Under the pieces are notes generated by a model, which did no database searches, was not told where the DNA came from, and saw only the letters and a list, made by a program, of their open reading frames with translations. A DNA stretch of 61,342 bases, the filler included, from Archaeoglobus sp. JdFR-37 (GTDB taxonomy: Archaea; Halobacteriota; Archaeoglobi; Archaeoglobales; Archaeoglobaceae): assembly GCA_002010215.1 (NCBI GenBank). It is 5 parts of 5 records of this genome, joined end to end, with 100 filler letters (N's around TTAATTAATTAA, not from the genome) between each part and the next. Parts side by side here need not be neighbours in the genome. Positions count along the whole stretch, not along the records: positions 40,109 to 52,393 come from MTMY01000023.1; 4 more parts are not named here. One strand, given 5' to 3'. This document shows positions 34,336 to 54,755 of the stretch, one piece after another. The translations under genes were made by a program, and so were the position numbers. Each line of letters opens with the position of its first letter. The first letter of the stretch is position 1.

Positions 34336-35115
34336 ATGACGGTAATGAAGGTCACATTGCTGGGCACAGGCGATTCGCCAGGAACACCGGTTATAGGCTG
34401 TCGTTGCAGAACATGTCAAGATGCAAGAAAGCACGGATGGCAAAGAAGGCGATTCTCTGTTTTAATTCAAACGGATGGAAAGAACATCCTTGTGGACACC
34501 TCTCCCGACATGCGATCTCAGCTTTTGAGGCTGGATATAGACAGGATAGATGCGGTAATCTGGACACACTGCCATTACGATCATTTTGCTGGCTTTGGTG
34601 AGTTCTACAGGGTTCAGAGCAATGTAACAGTCTACAGCTCTCCTGAAGTCCATGAAGATATAGCCAGATTCATGCACTTTATGAGTTATCGCAGACTTGA
34701 AGTTGAGCCTTTTGAGCCTTTTGAGCTTTTTGGAGTCACCATAACCCTTTTCGATGTAACACACCCACCGCTCAGAAGGGCTCATGGCCTCGTGGTGGAG
34801 AGGGACGGATACAGAGTTGTTATATCTGGGGACACAAACAGGGGCATCCCGGCTGAGAGCATCAGACTAATGATGGATGCAGACCTTCTTCTGGTGGATG
34901 CCATAGCTCCCGAAGGATACAGACTGAAAAAGCACATGAATGCAGGTGAGGCGATAGAGCTATCAAAAAAGCTTAGGGCGAAAGATGTTTATTTTGTCCA
35001 TCTTGGCCATTTCTATCCGCCACATAGAATTGCTGTGAAAAAATATCCGCTTGCCCACGACTTCCAGTCTTTCACATTTGGAGAGGGTTCTGATGACCTC
35101 AGCGCGTTCTTCTAG
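34336..35115 (+). CDS. PhnP-like MBL-fold phosphodiesterase
   Basis: LGTGDSPGTPVIGCRCRTC, THCHYDH, SGDT. Confidence 0.88.
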   Translation: MTVMKVTLLGTGDSPGTPVIGCRCRTCQDARKHGWQRRRFSVLIQTDGKNILVDTSPDMRSQLLRLDIDRIDAVIWTHCHYDHFAGFGEFYRVQSNVTVYSSPEVHEDIARFMHFMSYRRLEVEPFEPFELFGVTITLFDVTHPPLRRAHGLVVERDGYRVVISGDTNRGIPAESIRLMMDADLLLVDAIAPEGYRLKKHMNAGEAIELSKKLRAKDVYFVHLGHFYPPHRIAVKKYPLAHDFQSFTFGEGSDDLSAFF

Positions 35116-36088
35116 TATCGGTCTCGATATTGGCGGTGCAAATCTAAAGGTCTATTCCGAGCATGGATGGGAAATTCTGTACTTCCCTTTCTGGAAGGAA
35201 TGGGAGAGGCTGAGTGAGGTTCTGGCAGAGATCAAGGATAAATACGGAGTAAATCGGGCTGGAGCCGTAATAACTGCCGAGCTGAGCGATGCCTTCCCTT
35301 CAAAAGCTGAAGCGCTGCTCTACATAGAAAAGACGCTTAAGAACATCTTCGATGAAGTATTCTTTCTGGATTTGAACGGAGAGCTTAAACGAAACATGGA
35401 TAATCCCTTGAGCTACGCAGCCAGCAACTGGGTCGCTAGCGTAAAATTTCTCAGCGCAGATTTTGACGAATTCATTTTTGCCGACATGGGCTCAACCACC
35501 ACAGACATCATCCCCTTCAAAGGCAGAATACTGGCCGGGAGAACAGATTATGAAAGGTTAAAGCGTAAAGAACTTCTGTACTTCGGAATGCTCCGGACTC
35601 CTGTATTTTACATATTGTCCGAATTCGATGGAGTTTCCTTGAGCAGCGAGTACTTCAGCATAACAGCTGACGTTATGCAAATCCTTGGATTAATTGACAG
35701 TTCTGCTTACACATGTGAGACTCCTGATGGAAGAGGGAATAGCATTGATGAATGCATGCAGAGGCTGGCGAGATCTCTTTGTTGCGATGTGGAAGAACTT
35801 GGCAGGGAGAACACTGTAAGGCTTGCAGAAGCTGTGAAAGAGAGGATGGTGGATAAAGTTGCTTCAACCTTTCGTGAAAAAAGTGAGGAACATGGTATCA
35901 GCCTTGTTCTGGGATGCGGGATTGGGGAAGCGTTGCTGAAAGAAGCAGCCGAAATGGCAAGGCTTGAATACATGGCAATTAGCGGCATTTATGGTGAAGC
36001 ATCGCACCTTTTCCCTGCATTTGCCATGTGGAAGCTGGTAGATGGGCTAGTGGATGAAGTAATGAATGAACCGGTGGATGAGCAATGA
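35093..36088 (+). CDS. mfnF: Methanofuran biosynthesis protein MfnF (hydantoinase A-like)
   Basis: GLDIGGANLK, TAELSD, DMGSTTTDIIP, TPDGRG; adjacent to an mfnE-like kinase. Confidence 0.8.
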   Translation: MTSARSSSIGLDIGGANLKVYSEHGWEILYFPFWKEWERLSEVLAEIKDKYGVNRAGAVITAELSDAFPSKAEALLYIEKTLKNIFDEVFFLDLNGELKRNMDNPLSYAASNWVASVKFLSADFDEFIFADMGSTTTDIIPFKGRILAGRTDYERLKRKELLYFGMLRTPVFYILSEFDGVSLSSEYFSITADVMQILGLIDSSAYTCETPDGRGNSIDECMQRLARSLCCDVEELGRENTVRLAEAVKERMVDKVASTFREKSEEHGISLVLGCGIGEALLKEAAEMARLEYMAISGIYGEASHLFPAFAMWKLVDGLVDEVMNEPVDEQ

Positions 36089-36723
36089 TCATCGTAAAGG
36101 TGGGTGGAAGCATTGCTGAATTTGCATGGAAGCTCTTTGAGGATCTGAAGGGTTTGGAAGAGTTGAAGAAAGCTGGGAAGAGGATTCTGGTAGTTCCTGG
36201 TGGCTGGATTTTTGCAGAAAAGGTTAGGGAGTTGTGGAAGAAAGGAGTCATAGATGATGAATCTGCCCACTGGATGGCCGTAGAGTGCATGGATGTCTAT
36301 GGATACTACCTCTCCAGATTTGCTGACCCCGTAATTCCTGAAAATTTTCATGAGCTTTCGGAAGAGCTTCAGTATGGGGGTGTAAGGATTTTAATTCCCG
36401 GGAAGCTCGTCAGGAACTATGATGAACTACCTCACTCTTGGGATGTAACCTCTGATTCAATTGCCATATGGGTTGCCCGCAATATTGGCGCTAAGAATAT
36501 CGTAAAGGCTACAGATGTTGAGGGGCTGATTGTAAACGGGAAAGTTGTTAGCAAAATATCTGCCTCACAACTTCGCAATGAAACATGCATCGATTCATAT
36601 GCTCCCAAGCTTCTTTCAGAGTACAGGCTTGACATTTTTGTATGCAGGTGGGATAGGGTAAAAGATTATATATTGAGACGCGGTGCCATTGGCACGCTGA
36701 TCGCTGGATCGGAGGTGTTGTAA
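36085..36723 (+). CDS. mfnE: Amino-acid-kinase-family protein, MfnE-like
   Basis: KVGGS, VPGGWIFA, AHWMA, PHSWDVTSDSIA, TDVEG. Confidence 0.8.
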   Translation: MIIVKVGGSIAEFAWKLFEDLKGLEELKKAGKRILVVPGGWIFAEKVRELWKKGVIDDESAHWMAVECMDVYGYYLSRFADPVIPENFHELSEELQYGGVRILIPGKLVRNYDELPHSWDVTSDSIAIWVARNIGAKNIVKATDVEGLIVNGKVVSKISASQLRNETCIDSYAPKLLSEYRLDIFVCRWDRVKDYILRRGAIGTLIAGSEVL

Positions 36724-40108: not shown

Positions 40109-40350
40109 TTAGATAATACTTAAATATTTTGTTCAAGTTAACAGTATTGTTCGATTTAGGAGATTTCTGCTATGAATGTCCCTTTGGTAGGTGTGGTTGT
40201 TGCTTTGAGATTTAAAGAAAAGAAGGTGTTGCAGAGGTTGGCTGAGAATTACGTTGGTAAGAACCCTAGTTAGTTAAAAATTGACATTGATAAAAAATGA
40301 TCTGGTACTTCATCCTTATTCTCTCTTTGTTCCCATTCAGCATCATTTGA

Positions 40351-41637
40351 TTATTCCGAAAACACTGTGTACCGCCCATAGGGCACGACCGCTACTTTTG
40401 CATTTGAACCATACTCATTCATGGCGTCATTGAAAGCGTCTTGCAGTGATGTATAGGCCGCAATCCCTACAGCTTTAGCATCATCTATATTCTTTTCCAG
40501 AGTTATAACCTTAACATTTCTAGTAAGCATGGTTCTATATAACGGGTACCAAATGCAGCCTGCCCACAGCTCTCTCTCGCGGTTAAAGAAAGCTCTTAAC
40601 ACTTTTTCGTGATTTTCGCTGGACGGGGGCATGAATTCTGTCATCAGATCCATTAATGCAAAACCCGGCCAAGAGCCGTACCCGGGACATGGACTTGCAT
40701 GAATTATTGTTCCTCCCTCTTTTACAATTGGAGCGCAATTGACTATCGCCCAGCACGTATGGAAGAACAGGTGATCTGTCGGTGCTGAAGTTCCTGTAAT
40801 CACAACATCTGCTTTTTCCAAGTTGCTGATGTCAAACTTATAGATGTTGTTGTAGAATTCCACTGCCTTTTTATGTGAAGCTACGGGGTCACCTGCATTT
40901 ACATATATTACCTCAGATCTGTTGCTTACGATAACATTAATACCCATGTCTATTTCTGCAAGCTCCAAAGCCTCATATTTGTCCTGCTGCATTTTACAAT
41001 CGTTGTTGCCCGGTTTGCAGTCGGGAGCCAATGCCATGATATGGTTTATTTCAATTGTTTCGTTTCCTGATACACCCGGAATCACCATTCCGGAGCCTCC
41101 ATAGCCCCAGAGGGTCGCCTGAGTTGTACTTATAGTTATTACCGAATCGGCGGTTGCAACCTCTTTTAAAATCCATACCGGAGTTCCGTGAGAGGTGGTG
41201 CCTATGTAAACGTAATTCTCAGGTTTGGTTACGTCGTTGCAGTAAACTGGAATTCCTTTTTCAACCACCTCCGCCCCAACACGCTTTTTAATTTCCTCTG
41301 GAGATGGTGGTGGTACCTTACCGTTTGCTATCACCACTGAAACTTCTGAACCCGCAGCCTGAGCCCGTTCAACAAGGATGGGCAGTATTTTCTCTGCTGG
41401 AGCTGCTCTAAACTGGTTTTCAACCACAAAAACTACTTTTTTACCCTTTCCTATTAACTCTGAAAAACTATTGCCACGGATAGGATTCTCTATGGCTTTC
41501 TCCACTTCTTTGCCCAAGTCTACTGGATCAGGCTCTTTTGGAACAAAATTACCCAATAGATTCTCTTCGCGTATCTCCAATTCAAGATACACTCCCCTCT
41601 CTTCTGGCGTTTCATAGGGGATTTTCACCTTAGGCAT
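40351..41637 (-). CDS. LarA (lactate racemase/nickel-pincer)-family protein with atypical active site
   Basis: AIENPI, YIGTTSHGTPVWI, ADSVI, GYGG..VIPGVSG.ETIEINH, GGTII.ASPC, VVPYG. Confidence 0.85.
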   Translation of the reverse strand: MPKVKIPYETPEERGVYLELEIREENLLGNFVPKEPDPVDLGKEVEKAIENPIRGNSFSELIGKGKKVVFVVENQFRAAPAEKILPILVERAQAAGSEVSVVIANGKVPPPSPEEIKKRVGAEVVEKGIPVYCNDVTKPENYVYIGTTSHGTPVWILKEVATADSVITISTTQATLWGYGGSGMVIPGVSGNETIEINHIMALAPDCKPGNNDCKMQQDKYEALELAEIDMGINVIVSNRSEVIYVNAGDPVASHKKAVEFYNNIYKFDISNLEKADVVITGTSAPTDHLFFHTCWAIVNCAPIVKEGGTIIHASPCPGYGSWPGFALMDLMTEFMPPSSENHEKVLRAFFNRERELWAGCIWYPLYRTMLTRNVKVITLEKNIDDAKAVGIAAYTSLQDAFNDAMNEYGSNAKVAVVPYGRYTVFSE

Positions 41638-41692
41638 ACCACATCACCTGGTTTCCTCAAAGTAAATATTATTTCTTATTATTTAACTATTA

Positions 41693-42583
41693 TTACTGGT
41701 GTTGCTCGGTAAAAAGAGTGGGAAGAACAGTTTCGACGAGGCCAGTTATTACCTCTTTTCCCGAAATAACTCCGGCAAGTTTCCCATTTTCTGCTACAAT
41801 AAGAACTTCAGAGTCTTCCCCAGAAAATATTTGAATGAGATCCCATATCGTCATACTGCTGTCCACCACTGACAGACTGGGATCAAATATCTCTTTTACC
41901 GAGCACGTTAACTCATCCTCAGCAATGGCTTTGGCGATGTGTTTCAGGGTTAAGATTCCCGCGGGTCTTCCTCTCTCGGTAACTATTGCACAGTAAATTC
42001 TTTGGCTTGAAAGAATATTGGCAGCATCTTTAATGGTCATATCCGATTCGATTAAAACGAAGGGATGCGTTAGAATTGCGACTTCTATATTTGGAATTGC
42101 AAGCAGCCTCTCAACGTCAATAACAACCTCTCTCCCGACAGTCTTTAGAATTTTTCCTTTGATCAATAACTGCTTCCAGTAAATAATTTCTATTATATCT
42201 CCTTCAGAAAGCGCTGTTTCCTGATAAACTGTGAGAATCGTCTTTTCACCGCTTGAATTACTGAGAGCTGTCAATTTTATTCTTTCTACACCTAAATTGC
42301 GAGGCTCACCATTTACAAAAATCTTAACAGCCTTTTCAGAAAGTGCATGATTTAAAAGAAATTCGTACGCTTTGAAGGTCGGTTTATAGCCTCCCTTTGG
42401 TCCTGGTACCCCTTCAATCAAACCAAGGGTTTTAAGGAGCTGCAGATGGGATCTTACAGTGCTAGGCGTTTTTTTAGCAACTTGTCCAATATCTTCACTT
42501 CGGACATAGTTGGATGTTTTGAGGTATATGTCAACAAGCGCCTGAAGAATTTTTAACTGTGTATGCGTGATTCTTAGATTCAT
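41693..42583 (-). CDS. HrcA-like wHTH plus CBS regulator (paralog of 18198-19064)
   Basis: TPSTVRSHLQLL...EGVPGPKGGY; start MNLRITHTQ. Confidence 0.85.
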   Translation of the reverse strand: MNLRITHTQLKILQALVDIYLKTSNYVRSEDIGQVAKKTPSTVRSHLQLLKTLGLIEGVPGPKGGYKPTFKAYEFLLNHALSEKAVKIFVNGEPRNLGVERIKLTALSNSSGEKTILTVYQETALSEGDIIEIIYWKQLLIKGKILKTVGREVVIDVERLLAIPNIEVAILTHPFVLIESDMTIKDAANILSSQRIYCAIVTERGRPAGILTLKHIAKAIAEDELTCSVKEIFDPSLSVVDSSMTIWDLIQIFSGEDSEVLIVAENGKLAGVISGKEVITGLVETVLPTLFTEQHQ

Positions 42584-42672
42584 ATATTCACACTCCCTAA
42601 CACCAGATAGGCTTCTGACCCTTTCCGACACTTTTAGATAAACGGAAGAAATGGTGGCTTGTCTGAAGGATT

Positions 42673-43458
42673 TCAACCGAAGTACGCAGACACTGTCCCC
42701 AGCCTGTCAAACTCAGCTTCTATAAAATCACCGGATTTAACATCCACCGCTGAGATTAACGATCCTGAAAGAACTATCTCTCCTGCCTTGAGTTTTACAC
42801 CATACTCCGCAAGTTTATTGGTAAGCCACGCAACGGCCTGAGCTGGATTTCCAAGAACTGCAGCTCCCGCACTTGTTGAAATAATTCTGCCATTCTTCTT
42901 AAACACCATTCCAATCAATCTCAAGTCTAAGTTTTCGACTGGCGTAATTCGACCTCCAAGAATGACCCGGCCTATTGATGCATTATCTGCAACTGTATCC
43001 TGTATTTTAATCTTCCAATCTCTCACTCTACTGTCAATCACCTCTATAGCTGGCATTACACCTTCTGTAGCCTTCAGCACTTCTCCCACAGTAACTCCTG
43101 GGCCTTCAAGACTTTCTTTCAAAATGAATGCGATTTCCGCTTCAACTCTTGGCTGTATCAGATTTGATGTGTCAATAAAATCGCCTTCAAAACGCATCAT
43201 CACATCCATTATATGCCCATAGTCTGGCTCATACACTCCCAGCAATTCCTGCATTTGCTTGCTTGTAAGGCCTATTTTCTTACCGACTATTTTTTCGCCC
43301 CGCTCTTCCTTAATTTTTACAACTTTAAGCTGAATTTTGTATGCATCGTCAGTAGTTATTTCCGGATATCTTTCGGTTATCGGTTCGACCGGTTTCCTTT
43401 CCTCCTCAGCTTTAATCAATTCTCCGGCCAGCTCTTCAATTATTCTTTCATCCAACAT
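42673..43458 (-). CDS. mhpD: 2-oxopent-4-enoate hydratase (MhpD/4-oxalocrotonate decarboxylase family)
   Basis: AYKIQ, GKKIGLTS, EPDYG, PRVEAEIAF, EVIDSR, DTVADNAS, GNPAQAVAWL. Confidence 0.85.
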   Translation of the reverse strand: MLDERIIEELAGELIKAEEERKPVEPITERYPEITTDDAYKIQLKVVKIKEERGEKIVGKKIGLTSKQMQELLGVYEPDYGHIMDVMMRFEGDFIDTSNLIQPRVEAEIAFILKESLEGPGVTVGEVLKATEGVMPAIEVIDSRVRDWKIKIQDTVADNASIGRVILGGRITPVENLDLRLIGMVFKKNGRIISTSAGAAVLGNPAQAVAWLTNKLAEYGVKLKAGEIVLSGSLISAVDVKSGDFIEAEFDRLGTVSAYFG

Positions 43459-44347
43459 GATTCATACCTCCATGCTCAGAAATGTACTTATTTTTGAGGG
43501 TTCTCACAATCTCCTCAGCCAACTCATACTTATCCAATCCTTTACTTAATCCTTCAATGAGAGTCTCCATACACAACCTTACCTCATCGTTCGGTCCGGG
43601 AAGGGATACTATTAAGGATAACCCAACGCTCCCCACCCCTATTTTTACCCCATCTTTTTCATGCCTGCCGGTGCCCCTGTGAAACTTCATGATATACGGC
43701 GTTGCAGCATCAGGATCAATCTTTTTCAGGGCCTCGATTGTTCGGTCTTTAGCCTCAGCTCCCACACCACCGGTTGTTATAATCAATCCGTATCCATTGT
43801 CTACGGCATTCATGATGGCTGACGCAATGAGATCTGTATCGTCTGGGAGAACAGAACCTATATCCACACTGAATCCCTCTTTGTTCAGCCTATCTCTTAT
43901 GTATGGGGAATTTGTGTCCTTAACTACCCCTCTCCGTACTTCCTCGCCCGTAGGGAATACAATACACCTCTTAGATATTTTTTCTAACAAATTCTCTACA
44001 ATCTCCTTTGTTTTGGTTAACACCTCTTGAGCAACAGCATAATCCAGCTCTATAAAACCCAGAACACCTTCGGAATGGATTGTTGTTTCTTCGGTAACTT
44101 TAACTCCATGAATGTTCTTTAATTTATCCAGTAACTCTTTTTTCTTTCCGTATATATTCTCAGCTTCCAATGTATTTCTCAGAATATCAACCACTACGTA
44201 ATCCTCGCCTGCATCTGTAACTAGCACCTCCTCTCTTCCAAGCTTCAGGGTTTCAGAAACGGCTCTTGCAATCTCGCTCAAATCTACATCATTAAGGAAG
44301 ATATTTTTGATCCACAGCTCTGTTTTGCCAAGCAGATTTACCTCCAT
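43448..44347 (-). CDS. Molybdopterin-binding (MoaB/Mog/MoeA-like) domain protein with extra N-terminal domain
   Basis: PTGEEV, DTNSPY, ITTGGVG...DRT, SLPGP. Confidence 0.75.
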   Translation of the reverse strand: MEVNLLGKTELWIKNIFLNDVDLSEIARAVSETLKLGREEVLVTDAGEDYVVVDILRNTLEAENIYGKKKELLDKLKNIHGVKVTEETTIHSEGVLGFIELDYAVAQEVLTKTKEIVENLLEKISKRCIVFPTGEEVRRGVVKDTNSPYIRDRLNKEGFSVDIGSVLPDDTDLIASAIMNAVDNGYGLIITTGGVGAEAKDRTIEALKKIDPDAATPYIMKFHRGTGRHEKDGVKIGVGSVGLSLIVSLPGPNDEVRLCMETLIEGLSKGLDKYELAEEIVRTLKNKYISEHGGMNHVG

Positions 44348-44363
44348 ATTTCCACCTACACCC

Positions 44364-45203
44364 TTACGCTACATCCAAACTAATGTCCAACATTGGAGCA
44401 TCAATTATGGCTCTACCAATATCCAGAATATCCACATCCAGAGTCAGAAACTTAGGTATATCTTCCAAGCTAACAGATCCTCCGAACGCCAGCTCTACTG
44501 AGTTTCTAATTCCTTCTTCCACCAATTTTTCTGCCACAAGTTTGAGATCCTCTATTTTTCCTGTATCCACCATAATTATGCCTGCTCCTCTATACGCTGC
44601 CTCTAAAGCCTCTCTCCAGATCAGATCGGTTTCTCCTTTGAGCTGGATGACCTTAATCCTGTCTTCAAATATTTTTGCAGCTTCCAGCGCTTTTTTTATG
44701 CTTCCAAACATCCTGATGTAGTTTTTATCCAAATAAATGAAAGGATGATCTGAGATCCGTATGCTTGCACCCCCTATTTCGATGGCTTCTCTGATCTCTT
44801 TTTTTATTTCGTAAGGCATCTTTTTCCAAGCTCCAGATACAATGCGAATCTTCCCTTCAGACAGTTTAACCGCTTTTCTGGCAGCGGTAGCGATTCCGGA
44901 TGTTTTGGATATGAGGCCAATAAGAATGTCTTCAGCAATTGAAATTTGCTTGGGTGTTCCGGTTATTGTTGCTATCGTGTCACCGCAGTTCACCTCATCG
45001 CCATCTTTGACTTTCACATCTATCGATAACCCCAGCTCTGTGGCTTTTGAAGCCATACGGCCTATTCCAGCAACAACTCCCTTCTGGGTGCTCCAGATCT
45101 TGGCCTCAACCTTTTTATTTGAGATGTCTCTGAAAATCAGATCTCTCAGATCGGTTGTGTTGATTGGGTGTTTAATGGGCTTCAGCACCAGCGTACCCCT
45201 CAA
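44364..45203 (-). CDS. Divergent quinolinate phosphoribosyltransferase (NadC/ModD-like)
   Basis: GVVAG, KDGDEV, SGIATAA, IMVDT, FGGSV type II PRTase architecture. Confidence 0.75.
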   Translation of the reverse strand: MRGTLVLKPIKHPINTTDLRDLIFRDISNKKVEAKIWSTQKGVVAGIGRMASKATELGLSIDVKVKDGDEVNCGDTIATITGTPKQISIAEDILIGLISKTSGIATAARKAVKLSEGKIRIVSGAWKKMPYEIKKEIREAIEIGGASIRISDHPFIYLDKNYIRMFGSIKKALEAAKIFEDRIKVIQLKGETDLIWREALEAAYRGAGIIMVDTGKIEDLKLVAEKLVEEGIRNSVELAFGGSVSLEDIPKFLTLDVDILDIGRAIIDAPMLDISLDVA

Positions 45204-46650
45204 GTTTTATCCCCCTCTGTCTGCACCACTTCGGAAGAAGCTTTTGCTCAACTTCTCTATCAACATCGGGAGCCTTCTCAACTAGCTCCTCTGCAAGGGA
45301 TTCGCTTACATTTATTGCCCCGGGAGCTCCATCGAAAATGATTATCTTATCTGTATCAGCTATTTTCATTGCAAACTCGATTGCTGTTGGCAAGTCGTCT
45401 GCCACCACTGCATGCTTCATGAACTCAACGTTTTGCGGGTCTCTCCTGAACACTTCTGCCTGCCATTCTCCCACAACAATCGTCGGGATCATTTTAGCCC
45501 AGAAGACGCTCGGATATCCTCCCCAGGCATAATTAATTACCATTGCTTTGATGGCCGGGTTTACTGGTGGAATGTCTGGAATCAGTGGTCTATCACCTTC
45601 ACCATAGAAAGCCTCGGTATACCATGTGTAACCGGGTAGTGGATAATCAAGGTCGAATACATCTATACTCGCAGCAGAGAAGTTGGCGAATATCATTCCA
45701 GCCGAGAAAACATATGGAATTGGCGCCTGGAAGTCCAAGACTGCAATACACTCATCGATGTGGCTGAGTAAGGTCAGAATTTTTCCATAATACCTGAAAT
45801 TATCAATGGACAACCGTTCATCTAAAGCGAAAAGGTCGTTATCAGCATCAACACTTGCAATTCCGGCGGGTGTTGGCTTGAGGAATGTCGCAAAAGTCCA
45901 CTTCTTCTGAACGAACTCAGAGTTAAAGATGGCTCTAGCTACGAAATTAGCGCCTCTAGGCCCTAAATTTTGATGATAAGTTGACCTCGTTTCGATTCTG
46001 GCATAAGACATGCCAAACGGTTTAACGGCCCTGTCAACATGTCTGTGGAAATGAATCTCCCTCACATCACTGTTATGTGCGTGCACTATCCAGTCAGCAT
46101 CGTAACATCTCTTTATGCCATATAGCGTTCCAATCTCCGTCTCTATTGGAATTCCCTCATCAATTGGTGCCACACCTATTGCCCTTTTATTGAAATATTC
46201 GTCCAAACCAAATCTCTTTATGTACTCGTCAGACTCCCTGAATCTCAGTCCGACACCTACCCTGAGGCGGATGTTTTCTGTGCCGGTCTTTTCCATGATG
46301 ACGTCCTTGATCGTCTTTAGCATTTCTGCATACGGTTCTCCTCCGAGTATTGTGAATCCGTGATGGGAGCCAAGTACATTTACGGAATCTCCGGGCTTGA
46401 TCATGCTCATATCTACTTTTTCAAGTGCTGCTACAGTTGCATCCCGTACGGCTTTGATGCCCTTTTCGCTCGGATAGATGTTCTCCGGTATATCTGGAAA
46501 CAACTCCCTCACATTTACCGAAACGATATTTTCTAGGTCACAACCCCTAGTTTTGATATACTCTGGATCAGGCCCATATCTTGATGGCTTGGGTGGGAGG
46601 GGCTTCACAGGCTGATTAAACTTGATATTTCTTGTAATCATTTCATTCAC
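45172..46650 (-). CDS. Distant LarA/DUF362-like protein
   Basis: IKPGDSVNVLGSHHG, ADWIVHAH, H200-x9-K210-x15-H226 spacing. Confidence 0.6.
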   Translation of the reverse strand: MNEMITRNIKFNQPVKPLPPKPSRYGPDPEYIKTRGCDLENIVSVNVRELFPDIPENIYPSEKGIKAVRDATVAALEKVDMSMIKPGDSVNVLGSHHGFTILGGEPYAEMLKTIKDVIMEKTGTENIRLRVGVGLRFRESDEYIKRFGLDEYFNKRAIGVAPIDEGIPIETEIGTLYGIKRCYDADWIVHAHNSDVREIHFHRHVDRAVKPFGMSYARIETRSTYHQNLGPRGANFVARAIFNSEFVQKKWTFATFLKPTPAGIASVDADNDLFALDERLSIDNFRYYGKILTLLSHIDECIAVLDFQAPIPYVFSAGMIFANFSAASIDVFDLDYPLPGYTWYTEAFYGEGDRPLIPDIPPVNPAIKAMVINYAWGGYPSVFWAKMIPTIVVGEWQAEVFRRDPQNVEFMKHAVVADDLPTAIEFAMKIADTDKIIIFDGAPGAINVSESLAEELVEKAPDVDREVEQKLLPKWCRQRGIKLEGYAGAEAH

Positions 46651-47269
46651 CTCCAGCTTTTACAGTATCCAAAAGCTTCTTGAACAAGGCTCTATCCTCC
46701 TCAAAATAAAATCCTCTGGCTGAGTACTTTTTTATCACGTCTTCTGGAATGTCCCATATAGTAGGTGTGATACCATACCACTGCCACCCACCCTCTATTG
46801 GCTTGGGTTCTATCCCGGCAGCCTTCAAGAGTCTGAGAATGGGCTGTATACATTCTACTTTGCAGCCTGTTCTAACACCGGTCATTCTTGAAATTTCTTC
46901 AGGAGATGATGCTCCCATCAGAATTGCCGCTGCCACCTCCTCAGCTCTTGTTCCTGTGCAGTAGCATATTATCTGTTCTGGATGCAACCTTGCTTTAATG
47001 CAGAGTTCAGAAACTTTCTCTTCATCCACTGAATGTGGATTGACGCTTATAATTCTGGATTCATCCAGAGTTTTCAGCACAACTGCTTCGAACTGACATC
47101 TTTCTACACAGGCACCACAGCCAACACATGTATTCAAATCAACAACTGCAAGCTTCTCCTTCTTCTCACCCACTACTTTTATTGATATGGTGGGGCACAC
47201 TTTCTCACAAACTCTACACCCCGTACACTTCTCGGGGTCAACTTCTGCGTACATATTCACAACTCTCAT
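46643..47269 (-). CDS. Ferredoxin: 2x[4Fe-4S] plus BFD-like [2Fe-2S] domain
   Basis: CTGCRVCEKVCP, CVGCGACVERC, ICYC...TGCKVEC. Confidence 0.85.
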   Translation of the reverse strand: MRVVNMYAEVDPEKCTGCRVCEKVCPTISIKVVGEKKEKLAVVDLNTCVGCGACVERCQFEAVVLKTLDESRIISVNPHSVDEEKVSELCIKARLHPEQIICYCTGTRAEEVAAAILMGASSPEEISRMTGVRTGCKVECIQPILRLLKAAGIEPKPIEGGWQWYGITPTIWDIPEDVIKKYSARGFYFEEDRALFKKLLDTVKAGGE

Positions 47270-48309
47270 GCAACATTCCCCCTAGGGGATTTTTTTGCTG
47301 CCATTTCGGCAGCAACCTCAATTATCCAGTCCTCTTGGCCACCAACCGCCTTTCTCCTGCCTAATTCGATTATTATGTCTCTCGGATCCAGCTTGAATTT
47401 CTCGGCAGCCCTATAAGTGTGTAGAAGGAAGCTGGAGTAAACTCCTGCATAACCGAGTAAGAGGGACGTATTGTCGATTTTGGGCAGTTGCGGAACTATT
47501 GAGTCCAGAAGCTCAGCAGCGTCCATTATTCTGTACAAATCCACCCCCGTTTCGTAGCCAGCCTTATCTAAAACAGCAACCAGCACTTCTTCCTGCGCAT
47601 TTCCAGCTCCAGCACCCAGACCCCTCAAAGTACCATCTAATGACACAGCACCAACATCTGCTGCTCTGAGTGAATTCCCGATTGCCAATCCGAGATTATT
47701 GTGGGCGTGAAATCCAATAGGTATAGACAGTTCATTTTTCAGTACGACTATTCTTTCTTCAACGTCTCTGGGAATCATTGCACCGGCAGAATCCATCAAA
47801 TAGACCATATCTGCCCCATAACTTTCCATAAGCTTAGCCTGCTCAACGATTTTATCTGGGCCAACAGTGTGAGTCATCATTAGCACGCCTATAGTTTCAA
47901 GGCCCATCTCTTTACAGTAGACTATGTGCTCCTCAGAAATGTCAGCCTCTGTTACATGAGTGGCAATTCTGGCGACCTTTGTACCGGCATTCACAGCGAT
48001 CTTCAGGTCTTCAACTGTGCCTATACCAGGTAAAAGAAGCACTGCTAATTTGGATTTCGAGAGAACTGATGCAACACCCTCCAAGTATTCTTTATCGGAT
48101 GCTGCAGCAAATCCGTAATTGATTGACGAACCACCCAGACCATCGCCATGTGATACCTCTATTGTCTCGACTTTAGCATCTTCTAACGCCCCCGCTATTT
48201 TCACCATCTGTTCAACGGTAAATTTGTGTTTAACAGCATGCATACCGTCCCTGAGCGTTGTATCAATTATCCTAATTCTCTTTTTTCCGAGTTTTCCTCC
48301 ACCACACAT
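47266..48309 (-). CDS. mhpE: 4-hydroxy-2-oxovalerate aldolase
   Basis: DTTLRDGMHA, HGDGLGGSS, HAHNNLGL, GYAGVYSSFL, VGGQED; start ATG 48309 or GTG 48318. Confidence 0.95.
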   Translation of the reverse strand: MCGGGKLGKKRIRIIDTTLRDGMHAVKHKFTVEQMVKIAGALEDAKVETIEVSHGDGLGGSSINYGFAAASDKEYLEGVASVLSKSKLAVLLLPGIGTVEDLKIAVNAGTKVARIATHVTEADISEEHIVYCKEMGLETIGVLMMTHTVGPDKIVEQAKLMESYGADMVYLMDSAGAMIPRDVEERIVVLKNELSIPIGFHAHNNLGLAIGNSLRAADVGAVSLDGTLRGLGAGAGNAQEEVLVAVLDKAGYETGVDLYRIMDAAELLDSIVPQLPKIDNTSLLLGYAGVYSSFLLHTYRAAEKFKLDPRDIIIELGRRKAVGGQEDWIIEVAAEMAAKKSPRGNVA

Positions 48310-48314
48310 TTGAA

Positions 48315-49235
48315 TCACCCTGATTTAGGTAAAACTTCACGTTCTGGCTTTTCCTTCAGAATTTTTTCAGCGAATTTTTCACCTGTTGCCGCTGCGGCAG
48401 CAGTCATGATGTCTAAGTTTCCTGCGTAGGTAGGCAGATAGTCTCCTTCTCCAATAACCCGTATAATGACCGTTACTCGATTTTCATCCTCAAAAACTAC
48501 AGGAGGAATCTTAAGAGCATATCCGGGAACATATTGCTGTATTGTTTTGACCATATCATGTATTGATTGCAGTATCTCTTCTTTTTTGCTGATATCTTCC
48601 ACTATACAATGTATGGTATTTTGCATGATTATTGGCGGTTCAGCAGGATTGAGAATTATGATGGCTTTTCCTCTTTTAGCCCCCCCAACTTTCTCCAATG
48701 CCTTTGCAGTGGTTTGGGTGAACTCGTCGATGTTTTTTCTGGTCCCAGGACCGGCGCTCTTACTGGCGATGCTTGATACAATTTCCGCATATTCAACTCT
48801 GGATACCTTGTTAACTGCATAAACTATCGGTACCGTGGCCTGCCCCCCGCAGGTAACCATGTTCACATTGTCCTTGTCTAAATGTTCCTCAATATTTACG
48901 GCGGGAATAACGTAAGGTCCAACTGCTGCGGGTGTGAGGTCTATTGCAATTAGCCCTAATTTTTTGTAGACTGGGGCATTCTGCAAATGAGCCTTGGCTG
49001 TTGTGGCCTCAAAAACGATATCCACTTCATCTGCAATTTCCTCTAAGCCCTCTACGCCGTTCCAAGCTATGTCGATACCCTTTTGTTGAGCTATTCGAAG
49101 ACCCTCCGATTGAGATGGTGGAAATATTCCAATTACTCTTCGAATATACATGTATTTGCTCCTTTTTAGAATCTTGAACATCAGGTCTGTGCCAATATTT
49201 CCCGGGCCCACTATAGCTACACCAATTTTTCCCAC
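48315..49235 (-). CDS. mhpF: Acetaldehyde dehydrogenase (acylating)
   Basis: [47 protein letters not shown]. Confidence 0.95.
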
Positions 49236-49246
49236 AATACCACCTT

Positions 49247-49265
49247 CTTTACTATTGGGAAACCA
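49247..49265. promoter_or_regulatory. Putative operator (copy 1) upstream of mhpF
   Basis: Reverse complement TGGTTTCCCAATAGTAAAG is 16/19 identical to 51258-51276. Confidence 0.4.
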
Positions 49266-49369
49266 GGTTTCTTATTCATAATATCCTTGTTTGATGTATT
49301 TAAGGATTTCGACTAAGTTAATATCTATATTTAAATCAAAATATTTTTTAAAAAATTAGAAATATAGTA

Positions 49370-50902
49370 TTACTTTTCTCTCTCTTCAAATATGGTTATG
49401 GGTATCTCAGTTGTTCGTTTCCACTCTATTGCCTTTAGTTCATCAACAGCGGTCTTAGTGAACGCGCTGACTACAATGAATGCTGCGATATTGGCGGCAA
49501 GTCCCCATATCCCGGGATACAGGCCAATTGACTTGCTAAGTGTAGGAGACAGGAATAGCACCAATGTGATAATTAGACCGGCAAAACTTCCTCCAATGGC
49601 TCCTTCTTTAGTAAGCTTCACCGGTCCAATTCTGGAAACGCCGTACATTGCCGTTGCTATCTGAGGCAGTATCGATGCTGTTGCCAAGGATGCCGCTGCA
49701 GCGCCACTCGTCAATAGAAGGCTGTATCCAAACACAGCAGTTAGATATGCGATGAAACCGACTACAGCAATGGCTATTCTGGTTATCAACACCTCTGTTC
49801 TGTCAGATACATTTGCTTCAGCAGTGTGAATAATGTCTCGTGTAACAACCATTCCAACTGCATGATTTTGTGCTGCTGCACTGGACATCATCGCTGCTAG
49901 GCCTGCTGCAGCAATCAGCCCGAAAAGGACGGTAGGGAAGTACATTCTGTAAGTCATGAGAAGGTACTGATCTGGAGATACGTTGGGCAGAATCAGCACA
50001 CCTGCAAGTACGACTATCCAACCGCCTGTTTGAAGCAAGTATTCTATAAATCCGGCTACAAATGGATAGTATTTAACTACATGCCCCCTCTCGAAGTAAT
50101 ACAGCCTGGCCCACATGTGTGGATGAAGTATCCATCCGAGTCCAACCGGTATTGCCCAGGCTAAAAGGTAGTCCCATTTCCAGACTCCGGTTCTGTCTGG
50201 AATTGTAAAGAACTCCGGACCTATTTTTTCCAGTATGTGGTTATACGCAGCACCGATTCCACCCTGAATTAAGAAGACCAATGTGAACCCACCGAAAAGC
50301 ATTGCACCGAGCATTATAATTCCCTGAATAGTGTCAGTCCAGACTACTGATCTCATTCCTCCGGCCCAAGTGTATGCAAGCATGATGATGTAAAGGATCA
50401 ATCCACCAAGCCAGAATGGTACTAACCCTCCTGTAGCAATATCCAAAAGAATACCCACTCCTGCATACTGAACCTGAAGATACGGGACTAAAGCCAGAAT
50501 CAATGCAATGCCGACAAGATACCTGTAATATTTGCTTGAAAAGTATTCTCCAAGGACATCAGCTGGAGTGATGTGACCGAATCTCTTCCCCAGTTTCCAA
50601 GCCTTGTCAGCTATGAAATAGTACATGCTGCATGTTAAGAAGAGGTACATCCCCAAAATGGCGACATATCCTGCAACACCGAATTTGTAGTAAAAGGCTA
50701 TGAATCCCATGAAAGATAAGGCGCTGAATTGTGCTGCCGCTGCAGACCAGAATCCAGTGAACCAGTGTATTTTTCTTTTTGCAAGCACAAAATCTTCAAA
50801 GGATACGGGTGGATACCTTCTCCATGCCAATAGCCCAACTCCAAGTGTTATCAATAAGTAAATCGCTATGACCGCAATTGAAACAGTGGGGTCGAACGCC
50901 AT
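49370..50902 (-). CDS. Sodium:solute symporter (SSS family)
   Basis: EDFVLAKR, FSALSFMG, GGMRSVVWTD, AAMMSS; many TM segments. Confidence 0.92.
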   Translation of the reverse strand: MAFDPTVSIAVIAIYLLITLGVGLLAWRRYPPVSFEDFVLAKRKIHWFTGFWSAAAAQFSALSFMGFIAFYYKFGVAGYVAILGMYLFLTCSMYYFIADKAWKLGKRFGHITPADVLGEYFSSKYYRYLVGIALILALVPYLQVQYAGVGILLDIATGGLVPFWLGGLILYIIMLAYTWAGGMRSVVWTDTIQGIIMLGAMLFGGFTLVFLIQGGIGAAYNHILEKIGPEFFTIPDRTGVWKWDYLLAWAIPVGLGWILHPHMWARLYYFERGHVVKYYPFVAGFIEYLLQTGGWIVVLAGVLILPNVSPDQYLLMTYRMYFPTVLFGLIAAAGLAAMMSSAAAQNHAVGMVVTRDIIHTAEANVSDRTEVLITRIAIAVVGFIAYLTAVFGYSLLLTSGAAAASLATASILPQIATAMYGVSRIGPVKLTKEGAIGGSFAGLIITLVLFLSPTLSKSIGLYPGIWGLAANIAAFIVVSAFTKTAVDELKAIEWKRTTEIPITIFEEREK

Positions 50903-50903
50903 T

Positions 50904-51197
50904 TTATCTCACCCCACCCTTCATTTTCTCTGCTATCTCTCTGTCCAATTTTACTTCGTAGTATCCCAAGAAAAGGAAGTATGCTAGAGTGATCAATGGT
51001 ACCAATATTATACTGTAAAAGGCGTAAAATGGCCACCCGAATATCATTGGCTCTATTTTTGTCGAAACAAACGAAGCTAGGGGCAGGTACAGTAAGATCA
51101 GTGCAATCACACCAGCACTCATTAGGCGTCTTTTTCTTTTGTACTCTTCTATAATGTCTCTATATTTTTCAAAATCCAATTCCACCAAGTCCACCAT
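50904..51197 (-). CDS. Small 2-TM SSS accessory protein
   Basis: Two TMs with IFGWPF, directly upstream of the SSS gene; start MVDLVELD. Confidence 0.7.
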   Translation of the reverse strand: MVDLVELDFEKYRDIIEEYKRKRRLMSAGVIALILLYLPLASFVSTKIEPMIFGWPFYAFYSIILVPLITLAYFLFLGYYEVKLDREIAEKMKGGVR

Positions 51198-51257
51198 AGA
51201 GACACCTCGATTCTTAATGTTAAAACACACATATTTAAAATTTACCATAAGTAATTG

Positions 51258-51276
51258 TGGTTTCCTAATAGTGAAC
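51258..51276. promoter_or_regulatory. Putative operator (copy 2) upstream of the transporter genes
   Basis: TGGTTTCCTAATAGTGAAC, quasi-palindromic, near a TATA-like element at about 51232-51240. Confidence 0.4.
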
Positions 51277-51361
51277 AATAAGAAGACGTCTAAATGTTAA
51301 AAGACAGATGACTAAAATTATAAATTATATTCAATTAAAAAGCTAGTTATAAATCCCAACT

Positions 51362-52174
51362 TTAGCAATATGGACCTACTGTTTTAGGTATTCTCTCTAA
51401 CCTTTCATCACGGGGTTTGTATCCAAGCGCTTTGGAGATCTTCATAGCGTATTCTCTCACCAAGTCTGTATATTCTTGGATTTTTTCATCAGTAAATCTG
51501 GTGGATGGCCCAGAAATGCTGATTGATGCAATAACTTTTCCAGTATGGTCTCTGATAGGTGCACCCACACATTTGAGACCAATCTCCACCTCTTCATTAT
51601 CTAATGCATAACCCCTTTCACGTATCCTTCTCAGTTCTTCCTTCAATTTCTTGGGATCAGTAATTGTGTTTTCCGTGAATCTGGTTAGCGGCTTACTTAT
51701 TATCTCATTGACTTTTTCCTCCGGCAAATGGGCGAGGAGCGCTTTACCAACTGCCCCTGTATGCAGAGGCAGTCTCTTTCCGATCTGAGAATACATCCGA
51801 ATAGCCCTTGGACTGTCAATCTTCTCGATGTATACTCCCTCTCCATCCCTTTCGACCATCAAGTGGACCGTCTCATTACAAATTCTGGCAAGCTCTTCTA
51901 AATACGGTCTGGCAACCTTTCTCAACTCCAGATTCTCCAAGATCACTCCACTCAATTCCAGAATTTTAATTCCAAGTCTGTACTTCTTTGTGGTTGGGTC
52001 TCTCTCAACCAGTCTGAGGTGTTCAAGAGTATTCAGATATTTATAGGCAGAACTTTTTCCGATTTTTAGCCTTTCCGTGATTTCTGTAAGACTCATTTCG
52101 TGTTTCTCGGTGAAAAGGAATAAAATTTCCATGGCTTTTTTTACACTGCCAATTTGGGTCTCGTTTTTTCCCAT
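51362..52174 (-). CDS. IclR-family transcriptional regulator
   Basis: SVKKAMEIL HTH, ETVHL, GKRLPLHTGAVGKALLA, RGYALDNEE, SISGP. Confidence 0.95.
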   Translation of the reverse strand: MGKNETQIGSVKKAMEILFLFTEKHEMSLTEITERLKIGKSSAYKYLNTLEHLRLVERDPTTKKYRLGIKILELSGVILENLELRKVARPYLEELARICNETVHLMVERDGEGVYIEKIDSPRAIRMYSQIGKRLPLHTGAVGKALLAHLPEEKVNEIISKPLTRFTENTITDPKKLKEELRRIRERGYALDNEEVEIGLKCVGAPIRDHTGKVIASISISGPSTRFTDEKIQEYTDLVREYAMKISKALGYKPRDERLERIPKTVGPYC

Positions 52175-52393
52175 ACTTAGAACTTAATTTCTTGAATTTA
52201 AAAATTTGATGTTGTTAATTTAGATTATGGGTAACAAATCTGGTTGAAATCTGATCTAACAAAATAAATTAGGGAGTAATCGGGGAACGTAAGAAGAACA
52301 CCCATAAGAGGAAGATTTTTCTCTACATCCGCATCATAAAAGGGACGGACTTCGCAGATATTGCAAGGTACGTCCGCATTTCACATACAAATC

Positions 52394-52493
52394 NNNNNNN
52401 NNNNNNNNNNNNNNNNNNNNNNNNNNNNNNNNNNNNNTTAATTAATTAANNNNNNNNNNNNNNNNNNNNNNNNNNNNNNNNNNNNNNNNNNNN
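52394..52493. other. Artificial contig spacer
   Basis: N run with TTAATTAATTAA. Confidence 0.98.
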
Positions 52494-52924
52494 TCCTCCC
52501 AGCCAACCGCATATACCCCGTCATCCCTCTCCTCAATCTTTATTACAGGAAGGGGCTTCGGAGGAGGCCCGGCAACAACCTCTCCAGTCTCGGGATCATA
52601 CAACCCGATATGGCACGGACATATCAGGAGGTCGTCCTCAGTGAGTTCCGCAGATACTATGCATCCCAGATGAGTGCATATGGCCCCATACGCATGGTAG
52701 CCCGAAGGAGTCCGGACAATCAACGCCGCTTTACCCATGAAATTGAAATGTTTAGCCTCCCATACATTGAGCTTTTCTCCTTTTTCGAGGACCTTGACTT
52801 CACCTGAAGCAACACCTCCTGAACCGCTTGGCCATAGGTACCTGACAAGTATGCCTGCAAGATCAATAGCAAGTACAGCACCGAAAATTCCACCAATAAC
52901 TCTTAAGAAAGCCCTCCTTTTCAT
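52494..52924 (-). CDS. Rieske [2Fe-2S] protein with Tat/TM anchor (3' end cut by the gap)
   Basis: MKRRAFLR, CTHLGC, CPCH, GPPPKPL. Confidence 0.9.
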
Positions 52925-52925
52925 C

Positions 52926-53213
52926 TCACTCCTCCTCCAGAACGGTCACAAATTCGTCATCGAGCAGCCCTTTAACGTAGGTGTAAACAGCGGCCGCTCC
53001 GGTGAAGAAAATTCCTGAAAGAGTCATACCCACCTTTATACTCATCTCATACGGTTCGAGGGGCTGGGTGAGCAGATAAAGAAGGTAAAGGCTAAGGATA
53101 ATTGCTACAGCCACTTCAACTATGAGAGCAAGACTTCCAATTCTTATGGCCTTGTCACTTCTCTCCACCCTCTCAATTTTTTCGATAATCATGCTCTCAC
53201 ACCCCCATTTCAA
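52926..53213 (-). CDS. 2-TM membrane protein
   Basis: Two hydrophobic helices, tightly packed between neighbouring genes. Confidence 0.65.
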   Translation of the reverse strand: MKWGCESMIIEKIERVERSDKAIRIGSLALIVEVAVAIILSLYLLYLLTQPLEPYEMSIKVGMTLSGIFFTGAAAVYTYVKGLLDDEFVTVLEEE

Positions 53214-54636: not shown

Positions 54637-54755
54637 TCCATCACCTGATGGAATTGTTAATGATTATCTTAAATAATTTTTGGATAGAAAAAGGATGCAG
54701 GCAATAATTTTATAAGTTAAACTCTAAAAAATTTAATAATTAATGGATATTAAAA

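What the first reader, a model, noticed from the sequence alone, without database searches (positions are those of the whole stretch)
43448..45203. Divergent QPRTase plus Mog/MoaB-like pair without NAD or Moco context
Seen: NadC motifs are altered (TRKT to AWKKM, KDNH to DKNY, LDN to VDT), and the neighbour has a Mog-type TGGxG/LPG domain. No nadA/nadB or molybdoenzyme is adjacent. Inference: phosphoribosylation of a non-quinolinate pyridine (e.g. pyridine-3,5-dicarboxylate, bypassing LarB) followed by adenylylation or metal insertion.
Basis: partly seen in the sequence, partly recalled or inferred. Interest (0 to 1): 0.75.

Follow-up and report, generated by a model that had tools for sequence, protein, structure and literature searches.

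The report
Nickel-cofactor tailoring pair, anaerobic furoate pathway
These two genes are not ordinary NAD or molybdenum-cofactor genes: they travel with a distant relative of the nickel enzyme lactate racemase, and they likely tailor a nickel cofactor for it so that anaerobes can, as predicted here, break open the furan ring of 2-furoate, a step whose genes we did not find described.

Summary
The changed NadC motifs are fixed across a family, and the genome has no nadA hit. But the pair is not context-free. It lies in a tight operon with a 492-aa LarA-fold protein (U492), its Fe-S partner and the 2-oxopent-4-enoate pathway (hydratase, DmpG, DmpF). In 401 genomes of one phylum, all 24 with U492 carry this PRTase (3 of 377 others) and larC (208 of 377 others). 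The substrate is likely 2-furoate: orthologues of the furan-dicarboxylate decarboxylase HmfF and an hmf-type BenE transporter recur in the cluster, and furoate plus 2[H] equals 2-hydroxypenta-2,4-dienoate. Best reading, untested: the pair tailors a nickel-pincer cofactor for U492, probably by removing or exchanging its ribose-phosphate. The scan noted U492 and the furan idea before on other DNA (e1-4255058, e1-9523245); the visible lines of those notes do not discuss this pair.

The parts
44364..45203 (-). Divergent type II phosphoribosyltransferase (QPRTase fold), 279 aa; distinct subfamily tied to U492
   Evidence: PF02749 + PF01729; below nadC cut-off; motif changes fixed in the family
43448..44347 (-). 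299-aa protein: N-terminal beta-alpha-beta-beta-alpha-beta domain (about 1-100, fold not identified) plus Mog/MoeA-III/COG1058-fold domain with invariant E136, D169, D201; predicted dinucleotide pyrophosphatase
   Evidence: fused to the PRTase in 3 of 41 loci
45172..46650 (-). U492: 492-aa LarA-fold protein with no Pfam/NCBIfam hit; invariant H200-x9-K210-x15-H226; predicted nickel-pincer-type reductase
   Evidence: model pLDDT 84.6; Foldseek top hits are all LarA, best E 1.3e-9; motif in 120 of 120 homologues
46643..47269 (-). Fe-S protein, 2x[4Fe-4S] plus BFD-like [2Fe-2S] domain; predicted electron donor to U492
   Evidence: in 37 of 41 loci
42673..43458 (-). FAH-family enzyme, closest to 2-oxopent-4-enoate hydratase (DmpE), below the equivalog cut-off
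   Evidence: TIGR03220 320 bits against cut-off 409; DmpH model 280
47266..48318 (-). 4-hydroxy-2-oxovalerate aldolase DmpG
   Evidence: TIGR03217 above cut-off
48315..49235 (-). Acetylating acetaldehyde dehydrogenase DmpF
   Evidence: TIGR03215 above cut-off
49370..50902 (-). Sodium:solute symporter; takes the place held by a BenE transporter in the closest relative L001
50904..51278 (-). Small membrane protein beside the symporter, no family hit
51362..52174 (-). IclR-family regulator
   Evidence: IclR in 22 of 41 loci
40351..41637 (-). Second LarA-family protein (428 aa) lacking the equivalents of H108, H174 and K184 but keeping the Ni-ligand His
   Evidence: close relatives in 3 of 41 loci
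41693..42676 (-). HTH-CBS regulator, not conserved in the related loci

Best explanation
The PRTase-like and Mog-like genes form a four-gene core with an Fe-S protein and a LarA-fold enzyme (U492), and they likely act as a dedicated tailoring module for a nickel-pincer-type cofactor that U492 is predicted to use for reductive ring opening of 2-furoate. SHOWN: the gene linkage, the folds, the conserved residues, and the presence of larBCE, HmfF and hmf-type BenE in the same clusters or genomes. INFERRED, step by step: (1) LarB, LarE and LarC make the pincer nucleotide as usual. (2) The Mog-like protein hydrolyses an adenine-dinucleotide form of the pincer or its precursor to the mononucleotide plus AMP. 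(3) The PRTase acts on the N-ribosyl bond of that 3,5-disubstituted pyridine nucleotide, most likely in reverse (pyrophosphorolysis), giving a pincer without or with an altered ribose-phosphate. (4) This is tethered at U492 K210 with H226 on nickel. (5) Electrons from the Fe-S partner make a Ni-hydride that adds to the furoate C4=C5 bond; beta-oxygen elimination gives 2-hydroxypenta-2,4-dienoate. (6) The hydratase, DmpG and DmpF convert this to pyruvate and acetyl-CoA. Rough odds: furoate as substrate 0.65; pair serves U492's pincer cofactor 0.6; stripping or exchange rather than plain salvage about half of that.
For: Exclusive linkage: in one 401-genome sample, 24 of 24 U492 genomes carry the PRTase against 3 of 377 others. 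Of those three, two have a split partner gene and one copy has lost K127, R149 and K160. Archaeal loci L003-L008 keep the four core genes with no hydratase or dmpFG in the DNA held. PRTase and partner are one ORF in L015, L028 and L039. Pincer link: U492 folds like LarA and keeps H-x9-K-x15-H in 120 of 120 homologues, as do 17 of 26 Lar_N proteins; larC is in 24 of 24 U492 genomes against 208 of 377 others; larB, larC and larE lie inside 8, 11 and 4 of 41 loci. Specificity: the PRTase is in only 1 of 208 larC-positive genomes lacking U492, so it is not general pincer salvage. U492 has His96 at LarA's ribose-binding Asp, no conserved Arg at the phosphate-binding position, Arg136 at catalytic His108, and RxxD in place of the Gly-rich loop before the Lys (LarA roles from PMC12611868 section 2.5). 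Hydrolase motif: E136/D169/D201 match the triad shown essential in COG1058 (PMC3680494); the top Foldseek hit is COG1058 protein 3KBQ. Furoate: the UbiD in L021 matches PtHmfF (6H6V, E 4e-182; next family 2e-64); close HmfF orthologues are in 6 of 24 U492 genomes against 2 of 377; the Pelotomaculum U492 (BAF58660) is 17 accession numbers from PtHmfF (BAF58677); BenE is in 21 of 41 loci and two of its closest plasmid relatives directly follow hmfABCDE-like genes, the arrangement reported in PMC6678421.
Against: No activity was measured. The U492-LarA residue equivalences rest on motif spacing, predicted secondary structure and a weak profile alignment (probability 20%, E 0.0011, residues 62-188 only), not on a superposition; Foldseek TM-scores are only 0.36-0.46. 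By VIA-align the partner is as close or closer to Mog/MoaB (Z 15.0-13.8) as to 3KBQ (Z 13.7), and its second motif is GGVGAx3D, not GG(L/I)GPx3D. Two genomes (L010, a complete genome, and L012) hold the whole cluster but no larB, larC or larE. This window has neither HmfF nor BenE, and HmfF is missing from 18 of 24 U492 genomes. An M24 hydrolase in 15 of 41 loci is unexplained and could suit a nitrogen-containing substrate. Two other BenE hits examined sit near molybdo-hydroxylase genes that I did not show to be hmf genes. Related genomes are not independent, so the Fisher values overstate.
Confidence: 0.35

Rival explanations
1. Salvage or repair of the ordinary pincer nucleotide (closest to the first reader). 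The PRTase runs forward, joining PRPP to free pyridine-3,5-dicarboxylate or a released pincer base, and the partner recycles dinucleotide forms. U492 uses standard NPMN.
For: The HR Arg (R149), D213, G242 and G263 are kept while the C2-side basic residues are lost. Two genomes have the cluster and 4-5 Lar_N proteins but no larB, larC or larE, so they would need an outside supply.
Against: The PRTase is found in only 1 of 208 larC-positive genomes without U492, and that copy is degenerate. larB is in 35 of 41 cluster genomes and often in the same operon.
Confidence: 0.25
2. The catabolic substrate itself is a pyridine carboxylate (picolinate or dipicolinate). The PRTase N-phosphoribosylates it, U492 opens or reduces the activated ring in its pyridinium-nucleotide pocket, and the product enters the 2-oxopent-4-enoate route.
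For: It would give the PRTase a direct catabolic role, explain clusters without larBCE and use the M24 hydrolase related to ectoine hydrolase found in 15 of 41 loci.
Against: The accessory genes point to furans (HmfF, hmf-type BenE). larC is in 24 of 24 U492 genomes. U492 keeps the tether Lys and Ni-His spacing. One hydratase-type FAH gene is present, with no separate step to remove the sixth carbon.
Confidence: 0.15
3. Damage control. The reactive dienolate product adds to NAD(+) or to the pincer ring, and the pyrophosphatase plus PRTase dismantle the adducts.
For: COG1058 enzymes cleave ADP-ribose, FAD, NADH and NaAD (PMC3680494). Enolate adducts of NAD are known chemistry (recalled).
Against: The pair is present wherever U492 is (24 of 24 for the PRTase), as expected of an essential maturation step more than of an accessory repair function. 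Invariant new active-site residues suggest one defined substrate.
Confidence: 0.12
4. Extra supply of NaAD for LarB: the PRTase makes NaMN from nicotinate and the Mog-like protein adenylylates it (or adenylylates NPMN to NPAD).
For: Loss of the C2-side Lys and Arg is recalled to raise activity on nicotinate (Bello and Grubmeyer 2010; recalled, not retrievable). The fold is as close to Mog adenylyltransferases as to hydrolases. An NPAD cofactor exists (cited in PMC13524815).
Against: The genome has a true nicotinate PRTase (522 bits against cut-off 243). The partner has the hydrolase Glu that Mog lacks. Other larBCE genomes manage without the pair.
Confidence: 0.1
5. Ordinary NadC plus Moco adenylyltransferase, misplaced.
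For: Database names call many homologues nicotinate-nucleotide pyrophosphorylase; folds match.
Against: All family members score below the nadC cut-off; 23 of 41 genomes have a separate canonical nadC; this genome has no nadA hit. In the complete genome G002 the partner is the only PF00994 protein, so there is no Moco pathway to serve.
Confidence: 0.02

Closest known systems
NadC quinolinate phosphoribosyltransferase (TIGR00078; e.g. human 2JBM) and ModD (TIGR01334)
   Same: Two-domain type II PRTase fold; kept E91, K127, R149, D213, G242, G263.
   Different: R of ERxxLN to D/E, TRKT to xWKK, H of HR lost, KDNH to DKNY, EVE to Qx(R/K); separate clade from NadC and ModD in a quick tree (support 94); no nadA; bound to U492.
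COG1058/CinA N-terminal pyrophosphatases and MoeA domain III (PMC3680494)
   Same: GxEx3G, DTN and the Glu/Asp/Asp triad; top Foldseek hit 3KBQ.
   Different: GGVGAExKD instead of GG(L/I)GPx3D; extra N-terminal domain and an invariant R-H-x-K loop; not fused to PncC; genomes keep their own CinA.
MogA/MoaB/Cnx1G molybdopterin adenylyltransferases
   Same: Fold (VIA Z up to 15.0), TGG.G and LPG motifs, two Asp.
   Different: Mog proteins have (S)D(R/K) where this family has GxE; present in a genome with no other PF00994 protein.
LarA superfamily with LarB/LarE/LarC nickel-pincer nucleotide; NPAD and NphT variants (PMC13524815, PMC12611868)
   Same: U492 has the LarA fold and H-x9-K-x15-H; larBCE co-occur.
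   Different: U492 is below detection by Lar_N; lacks equivalents of the ribose Asp, phosphate Arg and first catalytic His; has an Fe-S partner; needs, by linkage, two extra nucleotide-handling enzymes that I found in no described pincer pathway.
Aerobic furoate pathway hmfABCDE with HmfF/G and BenE (PMC3223595, PMC6678421)
   Same: Shares HmfF/UbiX and the same BenE subgroup.
   Different: No conserved CoA ligase or molybdo-hydroxylase; predicted reductive route to 2-oxopent-4-enoate instead of oxidative route to 2-oxoglutarate.

Membership tests
NadC (QPRTase) | Score above TIGR00078 cut-off | tested here: not met
   120 against 198 bits; all family members below
NadC (QPRTase) | ERxxLN, TRKT, HR, KDNH, EVE, LDN active-site motifs | tested here: not met
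   all six altered, family-wide
NadC (QPRTase) | Quinolinate supply (nadA) in the genome | tested here: not met
   no PF02445 hit in a 94.5% complete genome
Type II PRTase superfamily | QRPTase_N + QRPTase_C domains with phosphate-binding Gly loops and ribose Asp | tested here: met
Type II PRTase superfamily | PRPP-dependent activity | not testable with these tools
   needs assay
MogA/MoaB adenylyltransferase | Fold and TGG.G / LPG motifs | tested here: met
MogA/MoaB adenylyltransferase | Score above family cut-off; SD(R/K) first loop without the Glu | tested here: not met
   PRK09417 30 against 158 bits, TIGR02667 29 against 222; GxE loop instead
MogA/MoaB adenylyltransferase | Moco pathway in every host | tested here: not met
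   sole PF00994 protein in complete genome G002, 1 of 5 genomes checked
COG1058 pyrophosphatase | GXEX3G motif and Glu/Asp/Asp triad | tested here: met
   G134-x-E136-x3-G140 in the window protein; G134, E136, D169, D201 invariant in 38-39 homologues
COG1058 pyrophosphatase | GG(L/I)GPX3D motif | tested here: not met
   GGVGAExKD, MoeA-like, Pro replaced by Ala
COG1058 pyrophosphatase | Hydrolysis of ADP-ribose or other adenine dinucleotides | not testable with these tools
   needs assay
LarA superfamily (U492) | LarA fold | tested here: met
   Foldseek: 14 listed LarA chains rank first, E 1.3e-9 to 7.3e-5; TM 0.31-0.46
LarA superfamily (U492) | Tether Lys and Ni-binding His | tested here: inconclusive
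   spacing motif in 120 of 120; no residue-level superposition available
LarA superfamily (U492) | Ribose Asp, phosphate Arg and two catalytic His of racemases | tested here: inconclusive
   appear replaced, on a weak alignment
LarA superfamily (U492) | Sequence hit to Lar_N or NCBIfam LarA models | tested here: not met
   0 families; no PDB sequence hit
LarB bypass | Hosts with larE and larC but no larB | tested here: not met
   no such genome among 41: G025 has larC only, G007 and G008 larE only, G002 and G003 none

The most novel reading that the evidence does not exclude
The pair makes a new nickel cofactor: a pincer stripped of its ribose-phosphate (a neutral pyridine-nickel pincer tethered to a lysine). 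U492 uses it with ferredoxin electrons to cleave the aromatic C-O bond of 2-furoate without CoA activation. This would be the missing anaerobic furan-degradation pathway, spread among Bacillota, Archaeoglobus-like, Asgard and Methanomassiliicoccales genomes.
Probability: 0.2. Interest if true: 0.92.

Novelty: new variant of a known kind. Interest (0 to 1): 0.72.

Why it matters
Anaerobic furfural degradation to acetate has been known since 1983 from two Desulfovibrio strains, and a 2011 review expected anaerobes to use other routes than hmfABCDE (PMC3223595, passages). This cluster gives a concrete, oxygen- and Moco-independent candidate, relevant to detoxifying lignocellulose hydrolysates. 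Nickel-pincer chemistry is widening (NPAD, NphT; PMC13524815). A PRTase plus pyrophosphatase dedicated to one pincer client would add a new maturation branch and possibly a new cofactor form. It would also correct a large family (1066 hits at E<=0.001 among 8000 candidates, a count that may include true NadC) often named nicotinate-nucleotide pyrophosphorylase.

Tried and rejected
Complex prediction for PRTase with its partner was not available, so physical association is untested. VIA-align runs on the U492 model never started. The PRTase was not folded (both jobs went to U492 and the partner). The partner's N-terminal domain has no identified fold: Atlas best score 0.79 and the VIA rows cover only residues 122-298. 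U492 has no match among plasmids. Literature searches that found no description of this cluster: 0 papers; 1 unrelated review; only PMC13524815. In PMC13524815 the main text has no 'quinolin', 'phosphoribosyl', 'molybdopterin' or 'furo'; 12 supplement files gave no relevant hit and 5 were not searched. The NPAD paper (PMID 40976284) is not held, so how NPAD is made or cleaved is unknown to me. Most subscription journals are outside the library. The larB-adjacent PRTase copy without U492 (G287) first looked like an independent LarB link, but it has lost key residues and is probably a relic. The careful tree did not finish; only the quick tree is cited, and it contains one mis-extracted row. Of 80 metagenome HmfF loci, only the 7 at 65% identity or more were informative: 4 carry core cluster genes (one duplicates L021), 1 carries only M24, 2 short contigs carry none; none of the other 73 carries core genes.
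Full report
SETTING. The window joins five contigs; the finding lies on a 12,285-bp contig, window 40109-52393. All its genes face one way. From dmpF to the HTH-CBS gene every junction overlaps or is at most 16 bp. Order: IclR, small membrane protein, Na/solute symporter, dmpF, dmpG, Fe-S protein, U492 (492 aa, no family), PRTase-like, 'Mog-like', FAH-family hydratase, HTH-CBS, LarA-like. The closest locus is from an Archaeoglobus MAG (81% identity for the PRTase). Only 2 of 94 genomes of the host's order carry the PRTase, so the module is patchy.

OBSERVATION. The three motif changes are real and there are more. Beside 7 canonical NadC proteins (8 fetched, 1 mis-extracted and dropped), the family has E(D/E)xxxG for ERxxLN, xWKK for TRKT, xR for HR, DKNY for KDNH, Qx(R/K) for EVE and DTG for (L)DN. 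In the 120 best-scoring homologues the new residues are fixed. From recalled QPRTase structure-function work, two basic residues near the C2 carboxylate become acids, the Arg that binds the C3 carboxylate stays, and new polar residues (Y157, Q187, R/K189) line the barrel. That fits a pyridine without a C2 carboxylate, perhaps 3,5-disubstituted, but it does not fix the substrate or the direction. It is not the house-keeping enzyme: 23 of 41 cluster genomes have a separate nadC above cut-off; this genome has no NadA hit and has a true nicotinate PRTase.

THE PARTNER. The model (pLDDT 88) has an N-terminal beta-alpha-beta-beta-alpha-beta domain and a C-terminal Mog/MoeA-III/CinA-type domain. Fold searches disagree on the nearest kin: Foldseek ranks COG1058 protein 3KBQ first (E 1.7e-8, next 5e-7), VIA-align ranks Mog first (Z 15.0 against 13.7). 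The residues lean to the hydrolases. PMC3680494 (passages) defines COG1058 by GXEX3G and GG(L/I)GPX3D and shows that the Glu/Asp/Asp triad shared with MoeA is essential. Here E136, D169 and D201 are invariant with nearly the same spacing. In the loci where my pattern caught the gene, CinA proteins have GxE, Mog proteins have SD(K/S), and this family has GxE plus DTN; solved Mog/MoaB structures have no Glu there. The second motif differs (Ala for Pro), so it works like, but is not filed as, COG1058. In complete genome G002 it is the only PF00994 protein, which excludes a Moco role there. It is fused to the PRTase in 3 of 41 loci.

WHAT THE PAIR TRAVELS WITH. In 41 loci found with the PRTase: partner 38, U492 38, Fe-S 37, hydratase 26, dmpF 24, dmpG 23, IclR 22; BenE 21, M24 hydrolase 15, larC 11, larB 8, larE 4, HmfF-type UbiD 2 (heuristic ORF calls may miss some). 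To avoid sampling on the PRTase, I searched 401 genomes of one phylum: U492 in 24, PRTase in 27 including all 24, larC in 232 including all 24, close HmfF in 8, of which 6 have U492. Around U492 in 22 of those 24 genomes, PRTase and partner lie within the fetched DNA in 19; the 3 misses end at contig ends. Fisher values are 1e-35, 1e-6 and 6e-7, overstated because relatives are not independent.

U492. Its model (pLDDT 84.6) matches only LarA structures at E<1e-4. H-x9-K-x15-H, the spacing of LarA's catalytic His, tether Lys and Ni His, is in 120 of 120 homologues and in 17 of 26 Lar_N proteins from five genomes. PMC12611868 section 2.5 (read) names the ribose Asp and phosphate Arg. On a weak profile alignment U492 has His96 and a Gly/Phe insertion there, Arg136 for the first catalytic His, and no Gly-rich loop before the Lys. 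If that mapping holds, U492 keeps the anchors for pyridine ring and nickel but not those for ribose-phosphate. This is the main reason to read the PRTase as removing or swapping that group. It is the weakest link in the argument.

LARB BYPASS. larB, larC and larE are in this genome and above cut-off in 35, 33 and 37 of 41 cluster genomes (controls 6, 6 and 5 of 14). No genome has larC and larE without larB. Two genomes lack all three yet keep the cluster and 4-5 Lar_N proteins. They either import a finished pincer, which would favour the salvage rival, or carry an idle cluster.

SUBSTRATE. The lower pathway takes 2-oxopent-4-enoate (C5H6O3), which is 2-furoate plus two hydrogens. The UbiD inside L021 is the orthologue of PtHmfF, the furan-2,5-dicarboxylate decarboxylase that yields furoate (passages of PMC8988006 and PMC6644310). 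In Pelotomaculum thermopropionicum the U492 gene (BAF58660) lies 17 accession numbers from PtHmfF (BAF58677). More distant HmfF homologues sit beside hmfABCDE-like genes in the loci I read (L065, L071, L076, L088, judged from ORF sizes and starts). The BenE of these clusters is 42-47% identical to nine plasmid BenE proteins and about 30-37% to the rest listed; of four neighbourhoods opened, two have the hmfABCDE-benE order and two have other molybdo-hydroxylase contexts. PMC6678421 (passages) only speculates that BenE carries furoate. PMC3223595 (passages) reports anaerobic conversion of furfural to acetate with no pathway. The Ni-hydride addition and beta-oxygen elimination step is my inference from recalled organometallic chemistry; PMC12611868 notes that nickel may transiently bind hydride in LarA.

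KNOWN OR NEW. Searches found no description of this cluster or pair. PMC13524815 (abstract, section on discovery, passages, 12 of 17 supplement files) shows pincer enzymes beyond LarA and cites an adenine-dinucleotide form, NPAD; that paper could not be read. PMC11851776 (passages) and PMC11770544 (term search, no hits) added nothing. Two earlier notes of this scan describe U492 as a LarA-like reductase, one proposing furan-carboxylate ring opening. I had reached the furoate reading before opening them (note). New here are the reciprocal genome counts, the rejection of a LarB bypass, the hydrolase reading of the partner and the proposal that the pair tailors the cofactor.

VERDICT. Real, conserved and mis-annotated. 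A dedicated accessory pair of an uncharacterised LarA-fold, Fe-S-coupled enzyme, likely for anaerobic furoate breakdown. The exact chemistry of the pair is inferred: tailoring 0.35, salvage 0.25, pyridine-substrate activation 0.15, damage control 0.12, NaAD or NPAD supply 0.10. Interest 0.72.

Noticed in passing
window 40351-41637 (-); relatives in L014, L025, L041, L196, L201, L212: A LarA-family subgroup that lacks the equivalents of His108, His174 and the tether Lys184 but keeps the Ni His; found at the end of some of these clusters. Could use a non-covalent pincer for a different reaction.
   Followed up: partly
L010 (G002) and L012 (G003): Genomes with 4-5 Lar_N proteins and the whole cluster but no larB, larC or larE hit; suggests uptake of a finished pincer cofactor from other microbes.
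   Followed up: partly
L010:17995-19101 and 14 other loci of 41; 15 of 22 U492-centred genomes: A conserved M24-family hydrolase (Xaa-Pro dipeptidase/ectoine hydrolase-like, below cut-offs) rides with the cluster but is absent here; role unexplained.
   Followed up: partly
L003-L008 (Asgard and Methanomassiliicoccales MAGs): The four core genes occur without the hydratase or dmpFG in the DNA held; the fate of the product there is unknown.
   Followed up: no
L186:9960-10754 and L187:2012-2812: Second copies of the PRTase in or near the same cluster in two genomes, with motifs intact.
   Followed up: partly
L038:6407-8482: The Fe-S partner is fused to a GltD-like NAD(P)H flavoprotein domain beside a divergent U492 (36%), which supports a redox role.
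   Followed up: partly
L214:9596-11425 (G287): Degenerate PRTase copy directly after larB and before xdhC/yqeB genes, with no U492 in the genome.
   Followed up: yes
window 52442-55694 (another contig): Rieske protein and several multiheme c-type cytochrome-like ORFs (CxxCH repeats) with C-terminal PGF-type tails, read from the sequence only.
   Followed up: no
window 35051-36723 (+), another contig: A hydantoinase-like ORF followed by an amino-acid-kinase-like ORF, resembling methanofuran genes mfnF/mfnE (recalled, not tested).
   Followed up: no
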